The notes beneath the pieces were generated by a model. The model ran no database searches, had not been told where the DNA came from, and saw nothing but the letters and a program-made list of their open reading frames with translations. A program made the translations under genes and the position numbers. A stretch of DNA of 64,000 nt from Candidatus Omnitrophota bacterium (lineage in GTDB: Bacteria; Omnitrophota; Gorgyraeia; Duberdicusellales; 4484-171). Where the stretch lies: NCBI GenBank assembly GCA_028703535.1, contig JAQVMQ010000001.1, positions 8,818 through 72,817 on the forward strand. The letters run 5' to 3'. Of this stretch, positions 12,706 to 64,000 are shown piece by piece; positions within the stretch are counted from its first letter, which is position 1; each line of letters opens with the position of its first letter.

Positions 12706-14467
12706 AGTAAATCTTTTATCCCCTGATATCATAAGTAAAATAGCTGCAGGCGAAGTGATTGACCGCCCATCGTCAATAATAAAAGAATTGCTCGAAAACT
12801 CTATAGATGCAGAAGCCGGTAATATCGAAATACACCTAAAACAATCGGGAAAAAAAGAAATAATCATACGTGATAACGGCACAGGGATAGAACCGGATGA
12901 TATAGAAACAATATTCAAACGCCACTCAACAAGTAAAATAAAACAAACAGCTGACCTTTACAATATCGCCACACTTGGTTTCCGCGGCGAGGCTCTTTAC
13001 AGTATCTCTTCCGTATCAGATATAACAATAAAAAGCAAAACCCTGGAATCAGAAACTGGTTGGCAAATAAACATGCGCGCTAACGAAAAAATATCACTCA
13101 CACCCATTGCCATGTCAAACGGGACAGAAATAACCGTTAAAGAAATATTCTTTAACACACCGGCCAGAAAAAAATTCCTTAAAACCGATTCTACGGAATT
13201 ACATAATATTATAGGTGTTTTAACTCCATATATGCTTCTGTTTCCCGGAAAAACTTTCAAGCTTACAAACAATAAAAAAACTATATTGGACGCGCCGGAA
13301 CCGTCACAAAAAACAGCACGTATATCCGAAATACTAAAACTAAACAAAAACGACATAATACACCGTTCACTCAAGCTTGCCGAGTACAGTATGTCAATTG
13401 ATTTTTTTCTCGGTAGTATAAACATCCAGCAGCCTAGAAAGACCATGCAGTTTGTTTTTGTCAATAACCGGCCCGTATACAACTACCGCATACCATTCCA
13501 AATAAACCAGGCATACAGGACATTGTTGCCTCAAAATATATTTCCTTTTTTTGCGATATTCATATCTATGCCGCCAGAAGATATAGATTCCAACATTCAC
13601 CCCAGTAAAAAAGAAATACAAATAAAAGACGAACAAAGAATAGCGCAAATATTGCGATACAAATGTCAAGACATAATCCTTACTGATTCTGATCCAAAAC
13701 AAGCAGTACTACTGCCGGTTAATCAAGAAAATAAACTGGACTTCCCCCGTCTCATAGATACAATTTTTGAACCTTCGGATCCTTACAAAAAACCAACCCC
13801 CTACACTGACACCGCGTCCGCCTTGCCGGCAATCCCTGAAAAAAATGCTAAAACCCCCGTTTTGGATATGTCACTCATAAAAATAAGACCGAACACATTA
13901 AAAGAAAAACTCCACACAGCTCAATATATAGGTAGTTATATAAAAAAATATTTATTTTTTGAATCCGGCACTTCATTATTAATTGCTGATCAACACGCTG
14001 CGCAGGAACGTATAACATATGAAGCACTGATCTCTCAAATAGAAAAAAGTAAAATAGAAATACAGCCTCTGCTTTCACCTATAACTATGAAAATATCAGC
14101 CCAGGAGATGGTCATATGGGAAATAATACATGATAAGTTGAAAGAGTTCGGTTTTGAAACTACGCTGTGGTCATCCGACACAATAGCTTTACATGCCTAT
14201 CCCATGTTAATAAAAAAACCCCAGACAGCTTTACTTAATTTTTTATCTCCTGACACAAAAAACGATCGGCAATTGGATACCGAGACCATAGCGAAAAGAG
14301 CATGCAAAGGCTCACTGACTGCCGGATATGATATGTCCCCGCAACAAGCAGATTATATAATAAAAAACCTCTTAAAATGTAAGGACCCATTCACCTGCCC
14401 GCACGGCCGTCCGACCTTGATAGAAATAAAAGAGCCTGTGTTTGAAAAACAATTCTTACGAATATAA
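12698..14467 (+). CDS. mutL: DNA mismatch repair protein MutL
   Basis: GHKL ATPase N-terminus (AAGEVIDRPSSIIKELLENSIDA, DNGTGI), C-terminal dimerisation domain; overlaps mutS by 8 nt. Confidence 0.9.
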   Translation: MAKVNLLSPDIISKIAAGEVIDRPSSIIKELLENSIDAEAGNIEIHLKQSGKKEIIIRDNGTGIEPDDIETIFKRHSTSKIKQTADLYNIATLGFRGEALYSISSVSDITIKSKTLESETGWQINMRANEKISLTPIAMSNGTEITVKEIFFNTPARKKFLKTDSTELHNIIGVLTPYMLLFPGKTFKLTNNKKTILDAPEPSQKTARISEILKLNKNDIIHRSLKLAEYSMSIDFFLGSINIQQPRKTMQFVFVNNRPVYNYRIPFQINQAYRTLLPQNIFPFFAIFISMPPEDIDSNIHPSKKEIQIKDEQRIAQILRYKCQDIILTDSDPKQAVLLPVNQENKLDFPRLIDTIFEPSDPYKKPTPYTDTASALPAIPEKNAKTPVLDMSLIKIRPNTLKEKLHTAQYIGSYIKKYLFFESGTSLLIADQHAAQERITYEALISQIEKSKIEIQPLLSPITMKISAQEMVIWEIIHDKLKEFGFETTLWSSDTIALHAYPMLIKKPQTALLNFLSPDTKNDRQLDTETIAKRACKGSLTAGYDMSPQQADYIIKNLLKCKDPFTCPHGRPTLIEIKEPVFEKQFLRI

Positions 14468-14536
14468 CACATATTTTTTCACATAACGCCCAACATGCTA
14501 CTTGTATAATTACACGCTTATAGTAAAATAAATTCC

Positions 14537-15331
14537 ATGACACTCTATATACTCATATTTCTTGGTATAATTTTTTTCTCCATCGGTATAATCCTGGTAC
14601 TAAAAAACGTATTCCTAGTTTCGCACTATAAGAATCAAGCTCTTTCACTTAAAAAAAAATATGATGAGACATTACATGAAATAAACGATCAACAAACACG
14701 AATAAAAAATGACTTCAAAGATTCTAATAAAAAAATAGCCGAGCTTTCAAAAAAACTCCAGGAAACAACTGCCGAAAAAGACGTTCAGATCTCAAAATTA
14801 GAGAATGAATTAGCAAAAAAACAAACAACAAGTACAGACAACGCTCCGGCCCACAATGACCATGAAATAAAGACCTTACGCGAGACATTATCAGAAAAGT
14901 ATGAAATAATAAAACAACTTAATCAAGAAATCTTATCATTTAAAAAAAATATGTCGGAAAGCCCGAAAAACTCAGATAATGCCAACACTTTAAAAAACGA
15001 ATTAACTTTTTCTCATGAAGAAGTTAAAAAACTAAAAATACAAATTATTGATCTGGAGACTAAATTAAGCGCAACCGAACAAGCATTATCCTTCGCCAAC
15101 AACCAGTTAAAATGTTTTTCTGAAAACGAGCCCGATAATACCGAAGATATCCTGAAAAGTAAACCGATAATAATGTCCGCGCCTGCCTCTACGGAAAAAA
15201 CCATACCCGCTGAAAATCTAAACGGTCCTACGCCTTCCGCAGGCCAAACGGATAAAGACAACGAGAAAAAATCTTTGCTATCGATATTAGATAACGAAAA
15301 AAAGAAAGAAAAAGAAGAAAATGAAAAATAA
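14537..15331 (+). CDS. Membrane-anchored coiled-coil protein (N-terminal TM, K/E-rich coiled coil, Lys/Glu C-terminal tail)
   Basis: Hydrophobic residues 1-25, heptad-rich remainder; no recognisable enzymatic motif. Confidence 0.5.
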   Translation: MTLYILIFLGIIFFSIGIILVLKNVFLVSHYKNQALSLKKKYDETLHEINDQQTRIKNDFKDSNKKIAELSKKLQETTAEKDVQISKLENELAKKQTTSTDNAPAHNDHEIKTLRETLSEKYEIIKQLNQEILSFKKNMSESPKNSDNANTLKNELTFSHEEVKKLKIQIIDLETKLSATEQALSFANNQLKCFSENEPDNTEDILKSKPIIMSAPASTEKTIPAENLNGPTPSAGQTDKDNEKKSLLSILDNEKKKEKEENEK

Positions 15332-15671
15332 GAAAGCATTATCCCATATTCTTGGAGTAATATTATTGTTTTTATCAGGCATATGCTTAATGACTGCCAT
15401 ATACATGCAAGACACAAAGTATAACACGAAAACGTTTGAGCCTTTAACATCCACTTTATGGAATCATGACGGTAAACTTATAATAAACTCAGGTTACAAA
15501 AATAACCTAAAAGAAAACCAAATATTCATTATAACTGAGGGCACAAAGATAATAGGTGTGATCAAAGCACTTAATGTAGAAGAAAATATATCAAATGCCG
15601 TTCTTCTGACTTCTGAAATATCGAAACTTGACAAAGAATACTATACTATATCAAAACTTAACATTATTTAA
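15321..15671 (+). CDS. Small membrane/secreted protein (N-terminal TM or signal)
   Basis: ALSHILGVILLFLSGICLMTAIYM hydrophobic segment; overlaps upstream gene by 11 nt (operon). Confidence 0.4.
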   Translation: MKNKKALSHILGVILLFLSGICLMTAIYMQDTKYNTKTFEPLTSTLWNHDGKLIINSGYKNNLKENQIFIITEGTKIIGVIKALNVEENISNAVLLTSEISKLDKEYYTISKLNII

Positions 15672-17871
15672 GTTCTTCGTTACATAAAGATCTGAGTTTA
15701 TCAATATCAGACTTAAGTAATTTTATCTTCAACAAATAATCTTCACTCTTAGAATCCTCATAAACCGGTGTAATCTCTTTTTCACGTCCATAAAGATAAT
15801 ATTCATCATAGGAGATCGGCTCATTACTTTTTTTAAACTCCTGTTGGTTCAACTCTATATCGCGCGTAAAATCGCTACTTATTTCACCCGAAATATCTGT
15901 TGCCTGTAGTTTCCCATTATCAGTATCGGCTGATATTTCTTTTTTGACATTTTCATAGTTTGCCTTTAATTGTTCTTTTTCCATGTCATGTTTTTCTGAA
16001 TTTCTGACAAACCTGTCGGTCAAGCCATCCAGTTCAGTCTTTAATTTTTCTATTATAATCTGCTTACCCGCATTCTCAGCCTCCAATTCCTCTACACGTT
16101 CCTTTAACCCCTTGCAATAGGCATCAGTTTTTGCGCTACCATCAGATATTTTTTTATTGAGACTATCTATTATTTTTTCTTTATCCGAATTATCTTTCTC
16201 TAATCCCATTATTTTTTTATGCAATTCGTTTTGAACATTTTCAATAAAATTATTAAAAGAAATATTTTCATTCTTCAGATTATCGTTTTCCCGCTTAAGA
16301 TCGCCTATCTCAGCTTCAAGGTTCTTAATAACCGTTATATCCGAATCTATATTCCTGTTCTTATGAGTAATCTCTCCTTTTAATTCTGATACTTGGTCGG
16401 TTAAAAACGTATTCTGTGCGATAAGTTCTTTATTTCTACCTTCAATTTTTAATTTTTCCTCAATAATAACGGCAGAAGATTCTTTGTCCAAAACAATTTT
16501 TGTAGTTAATTCCTCTAACTTGGACCTGAGTTCTTCATTTTCCAATTCTATTTTTTTATATGCACTGTCGGATTCATTTAAATTTAACCCGAATTCACGC
16601 AAATCATCTTCTAGTTTTTTATTTTTATTGCTCAGCGTTTCAACCTGCCCGGCCAAAACTTTATTAGCAGCCGCTAATCCCTTATAATTATCGAAATCCT
16701 TCTTAGATTGTTCACTATCTTTTTTTAATTTAGCCAACTGTTCGGACAACAATTTATTAGCATCCGTCAAACGCTCCACCACCTTAGTATTATCTTTAAA
16801 ACCTGCCGTAACATCGGCAAGTTCTTTGCGGGCAGTATCCAATTCTTTTTTGCTTTTATCGGTCAAATCCACCTGCTGATTAAGCTGTGTCAATAAATCA
16901 TTGTTCATTTCTTTGTATTTCTGTATGTCTTGCATTGTCGCCGCTGTCTGCTTATTCGACATCGCATTGTCCTTTAATAAGCTTATTTCTTTTTTCGCCT
17001 CAATAGTCTCCTTCTTTAGCCGCGCATTTTCATCTTTAAGACGCTCAATAACGGTCTCGTATCCGCTTGCGTCATGTTCCTTGTCAGCCTGTGATACCTC
17101 AGATTCGATTTGATCTTTTGCCTCAGCCATAGCAATGCGTGTCTGAAATGCTTCCACCTGTCTCTTTAAAACTTCATTTTCATTACGCAAAACTTCAGCC
17201 TCGCGCTTGAGCAACAAAACATTTTTTTCACTTTCGCTCATCTGTTCTTCAAAATCCGAAGCCATTTCAATCATATAATCATCTTTTTCCTTAACTTTAT
17301 TTGTTAAAAAAATTACCCTGTCCCTTAAGTCAGCAAGCTCAGAGCTCTGTCCAGCTTTAAAAGGTTTATTAATATCATTTAACTGTTTTTTTAATGCAAC
17401 TATCTGCCGCTCATTGTCGAGCTTACTGTCAACAAGCATACTTTTCTCAAGTTCATATTGTTTATTTAGAGCTTCAATCTGGGCAAGTTTATTCTGATAA
17501 TCTTTTTCACTATCACCGGCTTTAACAGCTGTTTCTTTATATTTCTGTGCTTCAGATACAGCTTTCTCCTTTGCCTGTATTAAAGTCTTAATATCCGCCC
17601 TGTACTTCTCAATTTCTTTACTTGCAGATTCTAGAGCCTGATTTAATTTATTCATTCTTTCTTCTTGCAATGAATATTCAGCTTTTAATTCTAAATTCTC
17701 TTTTGAAAGAATATCTTTAGTGTTATCCTTCTGTAATGTTTCCAATTTTGCGGTGAGCTGCTTATTATCTTCAATAAGCTGGTTAAGAAGATTCTTGTCC
17801 TGCGTATATCCGAAAAAAGTCTGACATAAAATAAACAACGAAAAGAGAAAAATTTTGAAATTATTATTCAA
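15664..17871 (-). CDS. Large secreted/membrane-anchored coiled-coil protein (735 aa), TTG start
   Basis: N-terminal hydrophobic signal/anchor followed by about 700 aa of K/E/L-rich heptad repeats; start codon is TTG at 17869-17871 preceded by AAGGAG. Confidence 0.55.
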   Translation of the reverse strand: MNNNFKIFLFSLFILCQTFFGYTQDKNLLNQLIEDNKQLTAKLETLQKDNTKDILSKENLELKAEYSLQEERMNKLNQALESASKEIEKYRADIKTLIQAKEKAVSEAQKYKETAVKAGDSEKDYQNKLAQIEALNKQYELEKSMLVDSKLDNERQIVALKKQLNDINKPFKAGQSSELADLRDRVIFLTNKVKEKDDYMIEMASDFEEQMSESEKNVLLLKREAEVLRNENEVLKRQVEAFQTRIAMAEAKDQIESEVSQADKEHDASGYETVIERLKDENARLKKETIEAKKEISLLKDNAMSNKQTAATMQDIQKYKEMNNDLLTQLNQQVDLTDKSKKELDTARKELADVTAGFKDNTKVVERLTDANKLLSEQLAKLKKDSEQSKKDFDNYKGLAAANKVLAGQVETLSNKNKKLEDDLREFGLNLNESDSAYKKIELENEELRSKLEELTTKIVLDKESSAVIIEEKLKIEGRNKELIAQNTFLTDQVSELKGEITHKNRNIDSDITVIKNLEAEIGDLKRENDNLKNENISFNNFIENVQNELHKKIMGLEKDNSDKEKIIDSLNKKISDGSAKTDAYCKGLKERVEELEAENAGKQIIIEKLKTELDGLTDRFVRNSEKHDMEKEQLKANYENVKKEISADTDNGKLQATDISGEISSDFTRDIELNQQEFKKSNEPISYDEYYLYGREKEITPVYEDSKSEDYLLKIKLLKSDIDKLRSLCNEELK

Positions 17872-17899
17872 TCCAGTCTCCTTTAATTAAATTATAAAT

Positions 17900-17928
17900 A
17901 TAATATTCCCTGCCGCAAGAAATGTCAA
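17900..17928 (-). promoter_or_regulatory. Sigma70-type promoter TTGACA-17-TATTAT for the coiled-coil gene
   Basis: Consensus -35 (complement of 17923-17928) and -10 (complement of 17900-17905) with 17-nt spacer, 30 nt upstream of SD/TTG start. Confidence 0.5.
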
Positions 17929-19325: not shown

Positions 19326-19673
19326 TTATTCCGACAAATAACTGTTAAGCTCTTTTATTTTTTGAACACAAATCTGCACGGCCTTAGCGCACTGTGTAAT
19401 ATCTTCCTGGGAAAAATAATTTGTACCCAGAGATGCCATGATTCCGGAAGAACTTTCATATAACTGACCCGCCTGCATAAACAGTTTCTGTGCTTCAAAC
19501 GCTTTTGTTTTGTCTAAAGTTGCATCAGTCAGATTAACCGCCGCAGTAAAAAGCATACTGGCAGCTTTAATATCAGAAAAAGCCTTCTGTCTTAACTCAT
19601 CAGGTGAGTTTTGTCCGAAACAAAGAAAAGAAAACACACAACACACAGCAAAAAAACAACTAATTACACGCAT
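19326..19673 (-). CDS. Small secreted hypothetical protein
   Basis: Signal-peptide-like N-terminus; tightly packed between flanking genes (8 nt and 1 nt gaps). Confidence 0.4.
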   Translation of the reverse strand: MRVISCFFAVCCVFSFLCFGQNSPDELRQKAFSDIKAASMLFTAAVNLTDATLDKTKAFEAQKLFMQAGQLYESSSGIMASLGTNYFSQEDITQCAKAVQICVQKIKELNSYLSE

Positions 19674-61798: not shown

Positions 61799-61840
61799 TC
61801 ACACCCGCCCGAAGGCAGGTGTGACAATTTTTTATTTTTT
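61799..61840. terminator. Bidirectional intrinsic terminator/attenuator between tuf and rpsJ
   Basis: 11-bp stem tcacacccgcc/ggcaggtgtga with cgaa loop (61799-61824), T-run on plus strand to 61840 and A/U run on minus-strand transcript. Confidence 0.55.
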
Positions 61841-63047
61841 ATTCAACGATCTCAGTTACAACACCAGCCCCAACTGTCCTGCCGCCTTCGCGTATCGCAA
61901 AACGTAATTCTTTTTCAATCGCAACCGGCTGGATAAGCTCAACATCCATTTTAACATTATCACCCGGCATAACCATCTCAACCCCTTCAGGAAGCTTACA
62001 AGTTCCAGTAACATCCGTTGTTCTGAAATAGAACTGAGGACGATATCCGCCAAAAAACGGAGTATGCCTTCCGCCTTCTTCTTTCTTTAACGCATAAACC
62101 TGCACTTTAAATTTCTTATGAGGTTTAATTGACCCCATCTTAGCACATACCATACCTCTTTCAACATCTTTCTTTTCTATACCACGCAAAAGCAATCCGA
62201 CATTATCACCGGCCTGCCCTTCATCTAATAATTTACGGAACATTTCAACACCGGTAACAACACTTTTCTGAGTTGCCTCGTGTATACCAATAATCTCAAT
62301 TTCCTCACCTGTCTTAACAACACCTCGCTCAATTCTTCCTGTCACAACTGTACCGCGACCGGAAATTGAGAATACATCTTCAACCGCCATTAAAAACGGT
62401 TTATCAATATCACGTTTCGGTGCAGTAATATAATCGTCTACAGCTTGCATAAGCTTGAATATTGAATCACAATCCGGATTACCGTCAACAGTTCCTGCAT
62501 TAGCAGCTTCCAACGCCTTCAAAGCGGAACCTCTTACTATCGGTATATCTTTACCAGGAAATTCATATTTTGTTAATAGATCACGAACTTCTTCTTCTAC
62601 CAAATCAACAAGTTCAGGATCATCCATCTGATCAACTTTATTAATAAACACAACAATAGCAGGAACGTTGACCTGGTGAGCTAAAAGAATGTGTTCGCGT
62701 GTCTGAGGCATAGGCCCGTCAGTTGCCGCTACAACCAATATCGCACCGTCCATTTGCGCAGCACCTGTAATCATATTCTTGACATAATCCGCGTGACCTG
62801 GACAATCAATATGCGCATAGTGCCTTGTCTCAGTTTGATACTCAACGTGCGATATATTTATAGTAACACCTCTCTCTCTTTCTTCAGGTGCTTTATCAAT
62901 ATCTTCAAATTTTAACGGATCAGCAAAACCTTTAGAAGCTAATACCTGCGTAATAGCCGCTGTCAAAGTGGTCTTACCATGATCTACGTGTCCTATAGTT
63001 CCAATGTTGAGATGGGGCTTATTTCTGACAAACTTTTCTTTTCCCAT
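61839..63047 (-). CDS. tuf: Elongation factor Tu
   Basis: [26 protein letters not shown]. Confidence 0.97.
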
Positions 63048-63095: not shown

Positions 63096-64000
63096 TCAAT
63101 ACAACCCTAATACTTTAGATACTAAATTATCAGGTACTTTCTCATAATACGAAGGCTCTATTGTATACGAAGCACGTCCTTGTGTCAAGTTTCTTAATAC
63201 ATCCGCATAACTAAAGACCTCAGCCAACGGCACTTCCGCCTTGATAATCCTAAGGTTTTTCTGTTCCGTGACAGATAAAATTTTTGTTCTTTTTGAGTTT
63301 AAATCTCCTATCACCTGACTTAAATACTCTGTAGGAACAATTACTTCAAGTAACATTATCGGTTCAAGCAATGTCGGATTGCCTCTCCTGAGTCCATCTT
63401 TAACAGCCATCTCGGCCGCGACTTTAAAACTTAACTCAGAAGAATCCGTATCCTGATATGAACCATCTATCAAAGTAGCTTTTATATCCACAACGGGATA
63501 TCCGCCAAGCACACCGCTTTCCAAAGCTTCCAATACACCTTCTTTCACCGAAGGTATAAACTCTTTAGGTATAACTCCGCCTTTGATCTTATTATCAAAG
63601 ACTATGCCTGTACCTTTATCCTGCGGTTCCATTATAAGTACAACATGACCATATTGCCCGTTACCGCCAGTCTGCTGAATAAACTTCCCGCTGGATTCCA
63701 ACTGTCTGGTTATAGTTTCTTTGTACGCCACCTGCGGTTTGCCTATTTTAGCCGCAACATTAAAATCACGTAATAACCTATCCACCATAACTTCAAGATG
63801 CAGTTGTCCCATCCCCGAGATCACATTCTGTCCGGTCTCTTTGTTATACATAACTTTAAACGATGGATCCTCATCACCGAGCTTATTCAAACCGTCAAAG
63901 AGCTTTTCCTGATCAGCTGTCGTTCTCGGCTCAATAGCGACCGAGACTACCGGCTCAGGAAATTTTATTTCTTCTAATACCATCTGCGCACTCATATCGC
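63096..64000 (-). CDS. fusA: Canonical elongation factor G, C-terminal part (gene continues beyond window end)
   Basis: EF-G domains III-V (GMGQLHLEV, HVVLIMEP, DGSYQDTDSSELSFK); position in str operon upstream of tuf. Confidence 0.9.
   Translation of the reverse strand, partial: DMSAQMVLEEIKFPEPVVSVAIEPRTTADQEKLFDGLNKLGDEDPSFKVMYNKETGQNVISGMGQLHLEVMVDRLLRDFNVAAKIGKPQVAYKETITRQLESSGKFIQQTGGNGQYGHVVLIMEPQDKGTGIVFDNKIKGGVIPKEFIPSVKEGVLEALESGVLGGYPVVDIKATLIDGSYQDTDSSELSFKVAAEMAVKDGLRRGNPTLLEPIMLLEVIVPTEYLSQVIGDLNSKRTKILSVTEQKNLRIIKAEVPLAEVFSYADVLRNLTQGRASYTIEPSYYEKVPDNLVSKVLGLY

What the first reader, a model, noticed from the sequence alone, without database searches (positions are those of the whole stretch)
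14537..17871. Cluster of membrane-anchored long coiled-coil proteins
Three ORFs lie here, two on plus (264 aa and 116 aa, overlapping by 11 nt) and one convergent on minus (735 aa, TTG start with consensus TTGACA-17-TATTAT promoter). Each begins with a hydrophobic anchor/signal, and the two large ones are almost pure K/E-rich heptad coiled coil with no enzymatic domain. The same anchor + coiled-coil design forms the N-terminal module of the EF-G fusion. This points to a lineage-specific family of anchored coiled-coil scaffolds, one of which has captured a translation factor.
Basis: partly seen in the sequence, partly recalled or inferred. Interest (0 to 1): 0.5.

Follow-up and report, generated by a model that had tools for sequence, protein, structure and literature searches.

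The report
Orphan anchored and exported coiled-coil genes
Three neighbouring genes of an uncultured Omnitrophota bacterium encode a membrane-anchored coiled-coil protein, a small membrane protein and a long exported helical rod; they are real genes but have no detectable relatives anywhere, and nothing shows that they are related to each other or to the unusual EF-G fusion nearby.

Summary

The three proteins and the N-terminal module of the EF-G fusion share composition and design, not demonstrable ancestry. Composition-corrected BLASTP gives E >= 0.014. Smith-Waterman z-scores of about 3 equal those against unrelated coiled coils.

Predicted topologies differ:
- The 264-aa protein and the EF-G module are N-out/C-in anchors with a cytoplasmic coiled coil and a disordered tail.
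- The 116-aa protein is N-in/C-out and is not a coiled coil.
- The 735-aa protein has a Sec-type signal peptide, so its roughly 630-residue, five-segment helical rod is exported.

The two large proteins are orphans. The 735-aa protein matches only itself in 1.84 billion representatives. The 264-aa protein matches only itself and one strain variant with a swapped C-terminal half. The 116-aa protein got no large-database search. The cluster is absent next to mutL in other Omnitrophota.

Most likely these are species-restricted, possibly strain-variable, structural envelope proteins. This is ordinary for bacterial coiled-coil-rich proteins. The EF-G fusion is real, is a second EF-G paralog, and is truncated in the NCBI annotation; it is the more interesting object.

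The parts
14537..15331 (+). cc264: a single-pass (bitopic) membrane protein. TM helix at about residues 3-22, predicted N-out/C-in. Cytoplasmic coiled coil at about residues 27-198 (about 25 nm). Polar, low-complexity tail at residues 199-264.
   Evidence: ORF. Heptad coverage 56% against 7% in shuffles. Flank charges 0 on the N side and +2 on the C side, followed by KKK. Identical protein on contigs of at least four assemblies. Matches only itself and one variant among 5.8 billion clusters.
15321..15671 (+). p116: a small single-pass (bitopic) protein. Basic N-terminus (MKNKK), TM helix at about residues 6-30, predicted N-in/C-out. About 85 residues outside the cytoplasm, predicted as beta strands at low confidence. 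Its start overlaps the cc264 stop by 11 nt, which implies translational coupling.
   Evidence: AlphaFold2: the TM helix is confident and the rest is below pLDDT 60. No family hit above noise.
15664..17871 (-). cc735: an exported alpha-helical rod. Signal peptide at about residues 1-24. Helical segments 26-118, 122-265, 268-429, 436-576 and 583-651. Disordered, aromatic and acidic stretch at 652-709. Terminal helix at 710-734.
   Evidence: Matches only itself in the exhaustive phmmer search of 1.84 billion representatives and among 5.8 billion clusters. No internal repeats.
17872..17928 (-). Promoter TTGACA-17-TATTAT (17928-17900) and the AGGAG ribosome-binding site of cc735.
5762..6781 (-). 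N-terminal module of the EF-G fusion, compared with the cluster but not shown to be related. TM helix 3-20 (N-out/C-in), KKRKQK cluster, coiled coil 31-240, acidic linker 241-340.
   Evidence: Same architecture as cc264, but no significant sequence similarity.

Best explanation
These are three genuine genes of one Omnitrophota population. The two large ones are orphans that appear restricted to this species. They encode non-enzymatic envelope proteins that resemble each other by convergence on a generic anchor-plus-coiled-coil design, not by demonstrable descent.

cc264 and p116 are translationally coupled. I infer that they form an inner-membrane pair. cc264 would project a coiled-coil stalk of about 25 nm and a flexible tail into the cytoplasm. 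p116 would present a small domain to the periplasm, and the two TM helices would provide the contact.

cc735 has its own strong promoter. I infer that it is exported by Sec and acts as a segmented helical rod. Extended, it would be up to about 90 nm long; five segments of 10-24 nm allow it to fold back. It would serve as a periplasmic or cell-surface structural element, such as a spacer, filament or fibril.

Shown: gene reality, heptad periodicity, lack of homologs for the two large proteins, and lack of mutual similarity. Predicted from sequence: charge-based topology. Inferred: the cc264-p116 pairing, export of cc735, and any structural role.
For: - Gene reality: ORFs of 264 and 735 codons in 34% GC DNA. 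A unique consensus promoter and an RBS for cc735. Identical calls in NCBI, JGI, ENA and Logan assemblies. GC3 of 0.30-0.33, like neighbouring housekeeping genes.
- Coiled coil: heptad coverage 56% and 72% against 7-15% in shuffles. AlphaFold2 predicts helix for residues 2-651 of cc735.
- Topology: flank charges. The cc735 N-terminus matches the shape of the TonB-dependent receptor signal peptide from the same window.
- No shared ancestry detectable.
- Orphan status of cc735 and cc264. No viral relatives of either.
- All three proteins: only sub-threshold hits in Pfam, NCBIfam, PADLOC, PHROGs and PDB. The fold search of the cc735 model found nothing.
- The cluster is absent downstream of mutL in 12 other Omnitrophota loci.
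Against: - No direct evidence of expression, localisation or interaction.
- Topology rests on the positive-inside rule and on resemblance to other signal peptides, not on a trained predictor.
- One MAG carries a 1-nt deletion that splits cc735 after codon 66. One metagenome contig replaces everything after cc264 residue 129. Function may therefore be dispensable or variable.
- Coiled coils diverge quickly, so true paralogy between cc264 and the EF-G module cannot be excluded by sequence tests.
Confidence: 0.6

Rival explanations
1. cc264, cc735 and the EF-G N-module are diverged paralogs of one lineage-specific family of anchored coiled-coil scaffolds, and one copy fused to EF-G.
For: cc264 and the EF-G module share the same order of parts and similar sizes. 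Three such modules lie within 14 kb, among about 60 genes. Uncorrected BLASTP aligns cc264 residues 19-198 collinearly with EF-G module residues 7-192.
Against: The similarity vanishes with composition correction. The z-scores equal those against unrelated coiled coils. cc735 has a different targeting signal and compartment. No intermediates or homologs exist in public data. The same design occurs in unrelated families such as RmuC, seen in locus L004.
Confidence: 0.15
2. The cluster is cargo of a strain-variable (hypervariable) region. It could be a remnant of a mobile element or a conflict or defence module, for example a spanin-like TM plus coiled-coil pair, rather than core envelope structure.
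For: Contig L015 is 99.6% identical up to window position 14923. It then carries a different coiled-coil C-terminal half and an 87-aa winged-helix-like ORF in place of p116. The two large proteins are orphans and synteny is lacking. Hits to Rz-like spanin phrog_13 (E = 1.3e-4) and to phrog_4876 (E = 3e-7) are weak in the sense of low bit scores (23 and 31 bits) in composition-biased sequence. A 2026 preprint reports abundant hypervariable regions in Omnitrophota (10.64898/2026.06.07.730766).
Against: No integrase, tRNA, holin, endolysin or defence gene lies nearby. Codon-position composition is native. There are no relatives in IMG/VR. The predicted N-out/C-in topology of cc264 is the opposite of an i-spanin's, and p116 has no lipobox. 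L015 is a 1.5-kb contig and could be chimeric.
Confidence: 0.15
3. These are young or weakly constrained ORFs. A-rich coding DNA yields K/E/N-rich helical polypeptides with little or no specific function.
For: No homologs of the two large proteins were found. The coding strands are very A-rich. One MAG carries a frameshifted cc735.
Against: Heptad phasing maintained over hundreds of residues is far above composition-matched shuffles. A targeting signal, a consensus promoter and an RBS are present. The 735-codon ORF is intact in four of the five assemblies examined.
Confidence: 0.1

Closest known systems
EzrA / ZipA-type N-terminally anchored cytoplasmic proteins (from general knowledge)
   Same: cc264 and the EF-G N-module have a very short extracytoplasmic N-terminus, one TM helix, a basic cluster, and then a long cytoplasmic helical or flexible region that holds something near the membrane.
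   Different: No sequence match to the EzrA or ZipA models in Pfam or NCBIfam. There is no FtsZ-binding domain and no cell-division gene context.
Bacterial coiled-coil-rich proteins: crescentin, Ccrp, FilP/Scy
   Same: Long heptad-repeat rods without enzymatic domains. A sub-threshold hit to the crescentin rod model PF19220.
   Different: The hit scores 19 bits against a cutoff of 100. Those proteins are cytoplasmic, whereas cc735 carries a signal peptide.
Periplasmic or envelope coiled-coil spacers: Braun lipoprotein Lpp, Thermotoga Omp-alpha (from general knowledge)
   Same: Exported alpha-helical coiled coils with a structural or spacing role in didermic (two-membrane) envelopes. This is the role proposed for cc735.
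   Different: cc735 has no lipobox, SLH domain or C-terminal membrane anchor. It is much longer and segmented. It has no sequence similarity to them.
SMC / archaeal SMC-related coiled-coil arms
   Same: Best NCBIfam hits, to the coiled-coil arm regions only.
   Different: The hits score 20-31 bits against cutoffs of 300-729. There are no ATPase head or hinge domains.
Phage Rz-like i-spanins
   Same: TM helix plus coiled coil, with a small overlapping downstream gene. Hit to phrog_13 with low bit score.
   Different: Predicted opposite topology, no lipoprotein partner, no lysis cassette, and a chromosomal housekeeping context.
RmuC (N-terminal TM plus coiled coil plus nuclease)
   Same: The same anchor and coiled-coil front end, seen in a related Omnitrophota locus (L004 3203-4420). 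It shows that the design is generic.
   Different: cc264 has no nuclease domain. The similarity (z = 4.4) is compositional and architectural only.

Membership tests
SMC (TIGR02168/TIGR02169) and ASRP (NF045487) | Whole-protein score above the curated cutoff; ATPase head and hinge domains | tested here: not met
   cc735 scores 30.7 bits against 567 and cc264 scores 19.7 against 729. The matches are confined to coiled-coil arms.
Crescentin rod (PF19220) | Score at or above the 100-bit gathering threshold | tested here: not met
   19.3 bits.
EzrA | Match to the EzrA Pfam or NCBIfam model | tested here: not met
   No EzrA hit at E <= 1 (Pfam) or E <= 0.1 (NCBIfam). The N-out/C-in anchor topology is predicted for cc264, but that alone does not define the family.
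Methyl-accepting chemoreceptor | MCP signalling domain or HAMP domain | tested here: not met
   No such hit for any of the proteins.
Rz/Rz1 spanin pair | N-in/C-out i-spanin; an o-spanin lipoprotein with a lipobox; an adjacent holin and endolysin | tested here: not met
   cc264 flank charges indicate N-out/C-in. p116 has no lipobox. The neighbours are mutS, mutL, an HD hydrolase and SpoU. phrog_13 scores only 23 bits.
MreC | MreC beta-barrel core (PF04085) above 28 bits | tested here: not met
   p116 scores 15.4 bits at E = 0.016. The AlphaFold2 model is too poor for fold comparison.
Proposed lineage-specific 'anchored coiled-coil scaffold' family (cc264, cc735, EF-G N-module) | Significant pairwise or profile similarity beyond composition | tested here: not met
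   Composition-corrected BLASTP gives E >= 0.014. z-scores are about 3, the same as for unrelated controls.
Proposed lineage-specific 'anchored coiled-coil scaffold' family (cc264, cc735, EF-G N-module) | Common membrane topology and compartment | tested here: not met
   cc264 and the EF-G module are N-out/C-in. cc735 has a signal peptide and is exported. p116 is N-in/C-out. This is rule-based; no trained predictor was available.
Proposed lineage-specific 'anchored coiled-coil scaffold' family (cc264, cc735, EF-G N-module) | Presence of members in related genomes | tested here: not met
   No homologs of cc735 or cc264 beyond the same population. The search with the EF-G N-module failed to return even its own protein, so it is uninformative.

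The most novel reading that the evidence does not exclude
The anchor, coiled-coil stalk and flexible linker could be a deliberate device of this lineage for holding cytoplasmic machinery at a fixed distance, about 25-30 nm, beneath the inner membrane. The EF-G paralog would be one tethered cargo, giving membrane-localised translocation. That could support co-translational insertion of the very long membrane proteins typical of Omnitrophota. cc264 would be a cargo-less or peptide-motif-bearing version, coupled through p116 to the periplasm, where the exported cc735 rod builds a matching scaffold. This amounts to a trans-envelope coiled-coil framework.
Probability: 0.07. Interest if true: 0.75.

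Novelty: new member of a known kind. Interest (0 to 1): 0.25.

Why it matters
Taken alone, the cluster adds three more uncharacterised proteins, two of them coiled-coil, from a candidate phylum. Such proteins are common and say little without experiments. The analysis has three uses:
1. It separates architecture from ancestry, so the nearby membrane-tethered EF-G paralog should be judged on its own evidence and not as part of a 'family'.
2. It flags that public annotation (NCBI PGAP) hides the 340-residue N-terminal module of that EF-G by starting the gene at an ATT codon.
3. It points to a possible strain-variable breakpoint inside cc264.

If Omnitrophota envelope architecture or host attachment is ever studied by cryo-ET, a rod of up to about 90 nm exported from its own consensus promoter is a reasonable candidate component.

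Tried and rejected
- Family libraries: Pfam, NCBIfam, PADLOC and PHROGs gave only sub-threshold coiled-coil noise.
- PDB sequence searches for all three proteins found nothing relevant.
- Foldseek of the cc735 model against PDB found nothing below E = 0.88. The top hits were generic axonemal filament proteins.
- AlphaFold2 of p116 without an alignment was confident only for the TM helix, so no fold search was attempted.
- Word-indexed homolog searches: cc735 returned only itself. cc264 returned itself plus the L015 variant.
- The search with the EF-G N-module returned nothing, not even its own protein. That negative result is therefore uninformative.
- Exhaustive phmmer of cc735 returned only itself.
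- mutL-anchored synteny searches in GTDB genomes and JGI metagenomes returned only relatives at 35-49% identity, none with the cluster.
- IMG/VR scans for cc735 and cc264 found nothing.
- No internal repeats in cc735. No tandem repeats except the A-rich tract at the cc264/p116 junction.
- No tRNA or Rfam feature anywhere in the window.
- Literature searches for a membrane-anchored EF-G or for Omnitrophota coiled-coil proteins found nothing specific.
- The magnetosome coiled-coil (Mad) idea was considered and dropped, because the window holds no mam or mad genes.
Full report
**1. Observation**

The three ORFs exist exactly as described:
- 14537-15331 (+), 264 aa, ATG start. I call it cc264.
- 15321-15671 (+), 116 aa, ATG start, overlapping cc264 by 11 nt. 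I call it p116.
- 15664-17871 (-), 735 aa, TTG start. I call it cc735.

The 3' ends of p116 and cc735 overlap by 8 nt. The TTG of cc735 follows AAAGGAG at 6-nt spacing. It lies downstream of TTGACA-17-TATTAT at 17928-17900. That promoter is the only exact TTGACA-N17-TATWAT site in the 64-kb window, against 0.08 expected; 7 of 100 shuffles had at least one match.

The same gene calls occur on contigs from independent NCBI, JGI, ENA and Logan assemblies. The organism is an uncultured 'Candidatus Omnitrophica/Omnitrophota bacterium'.

**2. Coiled coil**

K+E is 25% in cc264 and 27% in cc735.

A simple a/d heptad score covers 56% of cc264 (residues 27-198) and 72% of cc735 (residues 20-623). The corresponding figures in residue shuffles are 7% and 15%. 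The same score marks residues 31-240 of the EF-G fusion ORF.

AlphaFold2 on the single sequence predicts five cc735 helices: 2-118, 122-265, 268-429, 436-576 and 583-651. These are followed by a disordered stretch at 652-709 and a terminal helix at 710-734. Mean pLDDT is 58.9, so only the secondary structure should be trusted.

At 0.148 nm per residue (a general-knowledge figure), the rods would measure about 25 nm for cc264, about 31 nm for the EF-G module, and up to about 90 nm for cc735 if fully extended.

p116 is not a coiled coil. Only its TM helix is predicted with confidence.

**3. Topology**

No trained predictor was available. I used flank charges around the hydrophobic core and compared them with other proteins of the window.

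| Protein | N-flank charge | C-flank charge | Predicted topology |
|---|---|---|---|
| cc264 | 0 | +2, then KKK | N-out/C-in |
| EF-G fusion | -1 | +5 (KKRKQK) | N-out/C-in, as needed for a cytoplasmic EF-G |
| p116 | +3 (MKNKK) | 0 | N-in/C-out |
| cc735 | +1 | -1 | exported (Sec-type signal peptide) |

cc735 has a short uncharged run of 18 residues, of which about the first 15 are hydrophobic, followed by a polar region. This is the shape seen in the TonB-dependent receptor and other secreted proteins of the window. It therefore reads as a Sec signal peptide, which places the rod outside the cytoplasm.

The 'same design' statement thus holds for cc264 and the EF-G module only.

**4. Are they related to each other?**

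- With composition-based statistics, no pair among cc264, p116, cc735 and the EF-G N-module is significant. The best is cc264 against cc735 at E = 0.014 in a two-sequence search.
- Without the correction, E-values of 1e-9 to 1e-13 appear, and they also appear for non-collinear alignments. That is the signature of shared composition.
- Smith-Waterman scores exceed heptad-block shuffles by z of about 3.
- Unrelated coiled coils give the same or more. The cc264 score against an RmuC N-terminus from locus L004 has z = 4.4. The scores against an exported coiled-coil ORF from L005 have z = 2.4-3.2.
- cc735 has no internal repeats.

There is therefore no evidence of common descent. Fast divergence of coiled coils means paralogy cannot be excluded.

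**5. Relatives elsewhere**

- cc735 matches only itself among 5.8 billion clusters. It also matches only itself in an exhaustive phmmer search of 1.84 billion representatives.
- cc264 matches only itself and a 272-aa variant.
- p116 was not searched against the large protein collections.
- Pfam, NCBIfam, PADLOC, PHROGs and PDB give only sub-threshold coiled-coil matches, to SMC arms, the crescentin rod and Rz-like spanins.
- Foldseek of the cc735 model finds nothing below E = 0.88.
- No relatives exist in IMG/VR.
- Loci anchored on mutL from other Omnitrophota (35-49% MutL identity, L002-L014) carry different genes downstream of mutL. None encodes a relative of any of the three proteins.

**6. 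Population variation**

Four contigs from other assemblies are 99.94-100% identical to the window across the region. They carry no substitutions inside the cluster. There are two exceptions:
- The NCBI MAG GCA_028715525.1 has a 1-nt deletion at 17672. It is not in a homopolymer. It splits cc735 into 72-aa and 663-aa ORFs.
- JGI contig Ga0172381_10225028 (L015, 1.5 kb) is 99.6% identical to 14213-14923 and then diverges completely. It gives cc264 a different C-terminal half that is still heptad-patterned. An 87-aa winged-helix-like ORF follows in place of p116.

These may be real variants, which would suggest that the locus is flexible or dispensable. They may also be assembly artefacts.

GC3 of the three genes (0.30-0.33) matches their neighbours, so there is no compositional sign of recent import.

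**7. The EF-G link**

- The 1036-codon ORF 3671-6781 is continuous and has a GGAG ribosome-binding site.
- The exact protein, and a one-residue variant, occur in separate assemblies. NCBI PGAP annotates only 697 aa, starting from an ATT codon, which hides the N-terminal module.
- Its EF-G part scores 1037 bits on TIGR00484.
- The window also holds the 3' part of a canonical fusA directly upstream of tuf (63096 to the window end). It is 49% identical over 292 residues. The fusion is therefore a second EF-G paralog.
- A 2026 preprint reports extra EF-G and EF-Tu copies in hypervariable regions, and a predominance of membrane-anchored architectures among long Omnitrophota proteins (10.64898/2026.06.07.730766).
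- Nothing shows that the N-module derives from cc264 or cc735.

**8. Interpretation**

The best-supported reading is that these are real genes, two of them orphans restricted to this species, encoding non-enzymatic envelope proteins.
- cc264 and p116 form a translationally coupled inner-membrane pair with domains on opposite faces.
- cc735 is an independently transcribed, exported, segmented helical rod with a structural role in the periplasm or on the surface.

These functions are inferred, not shown.

Three rivals have lower support: a true paralogous family that includes the EF-G module, cargo of a strain-variable region, and weakly constrained young ORFs. No known family passes a membership test.

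The finding is ordinary for bacterial coiled-coil-rich proteins. The EF-G fusion deserves separate attention.

Noticed in passing
window 3671-6781 (-): The EF-G fusion (TM helix, coiled coil, acidic linker, then a complete EF-G with intact G1-G5 motifs) is annotated at NCBI as a 697-aa EF-G starting from an ATT codon. That annotation hides the 340-residue N-terminal module. Prodigal-type gene calls in JGI, ENA and Logan give the full 1036 aa.
   Followed up: partly
window 63096-64000 (-) and 61839-63047 (-): The 3' part of a canonical fusA runs off the window edge directly upstream of tuf. The genome therefore has two EF-G genes. The two are 49% identical over the last 292 residues.
   Followed up: yes
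L015 712-1507 (breakpoint = window 14923): A JGI metagenome contig is 99.6% identical to the window up to residue 129 of cc264. It then carries an unrelated but still coiled-coil C-terminal half and an 87-aa winged-helix-like ORF. This is either a strain-variable junction or a chimeric contig.
   Followed up: partly
window 17672 (L018, GCA_028715525.1): A 1-nt deletion outside any homopolymer frameshifts cc735 after codon 66 in one MAG. It separates the signal peptide region from the rod.
   Followed up: partly
window 15297-15304: An A7 run forms the classic A_AAA_AAG slippery heptamer in the cc264 reading frame, just before the p116 start. The p116 frame is cc264 +1. The predicted topologies of the two proteins would also be self-consistent as a single two-TM polypeptide. 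The motif may simply be chance in a lysine-rich tail.
   Followed up: no
window 1-64000: GC skew on the + strand is strongly and uniformly negative (-0.12 to -0.30 in 2-kb windows), whatever the gene orientation. Most genes, including the ribosomal protein cluster, lie on the - strand.
   Followed up: no
window 19326-19673 (-): A 115-aa ORF with a signal peptide and a helical body, with no family hit. It is another small exported orphan, lying between the SpoU methylase and the M50 peptidase.
   Followed up: partly
window 3194-3628 (-): A PIN-domain gene lies 43 nt downstream of the EF-G fusion on the same strand.
   Followed up: no
L005 9909-19061 (-) and 2756-3973 (-): A related Omnitrophica WOR_2 contig carries a 3050-aa ORF with an N-masked gap. 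It also carries a 405-aa ORF with a signal peptide and a coiled coil. Exported coiled-coil proteins therefore recur in the phylum without detectable homology to cc735.
   Followed up: partly
(tool behaviour): The word-indexed homolog search with EF-G residues 1-362 returned no hit, although the full-length protein is in the collection as a cluster representative. Negative results of that tool for low-complexity queries should be treated with caution.
   Followed up: partly
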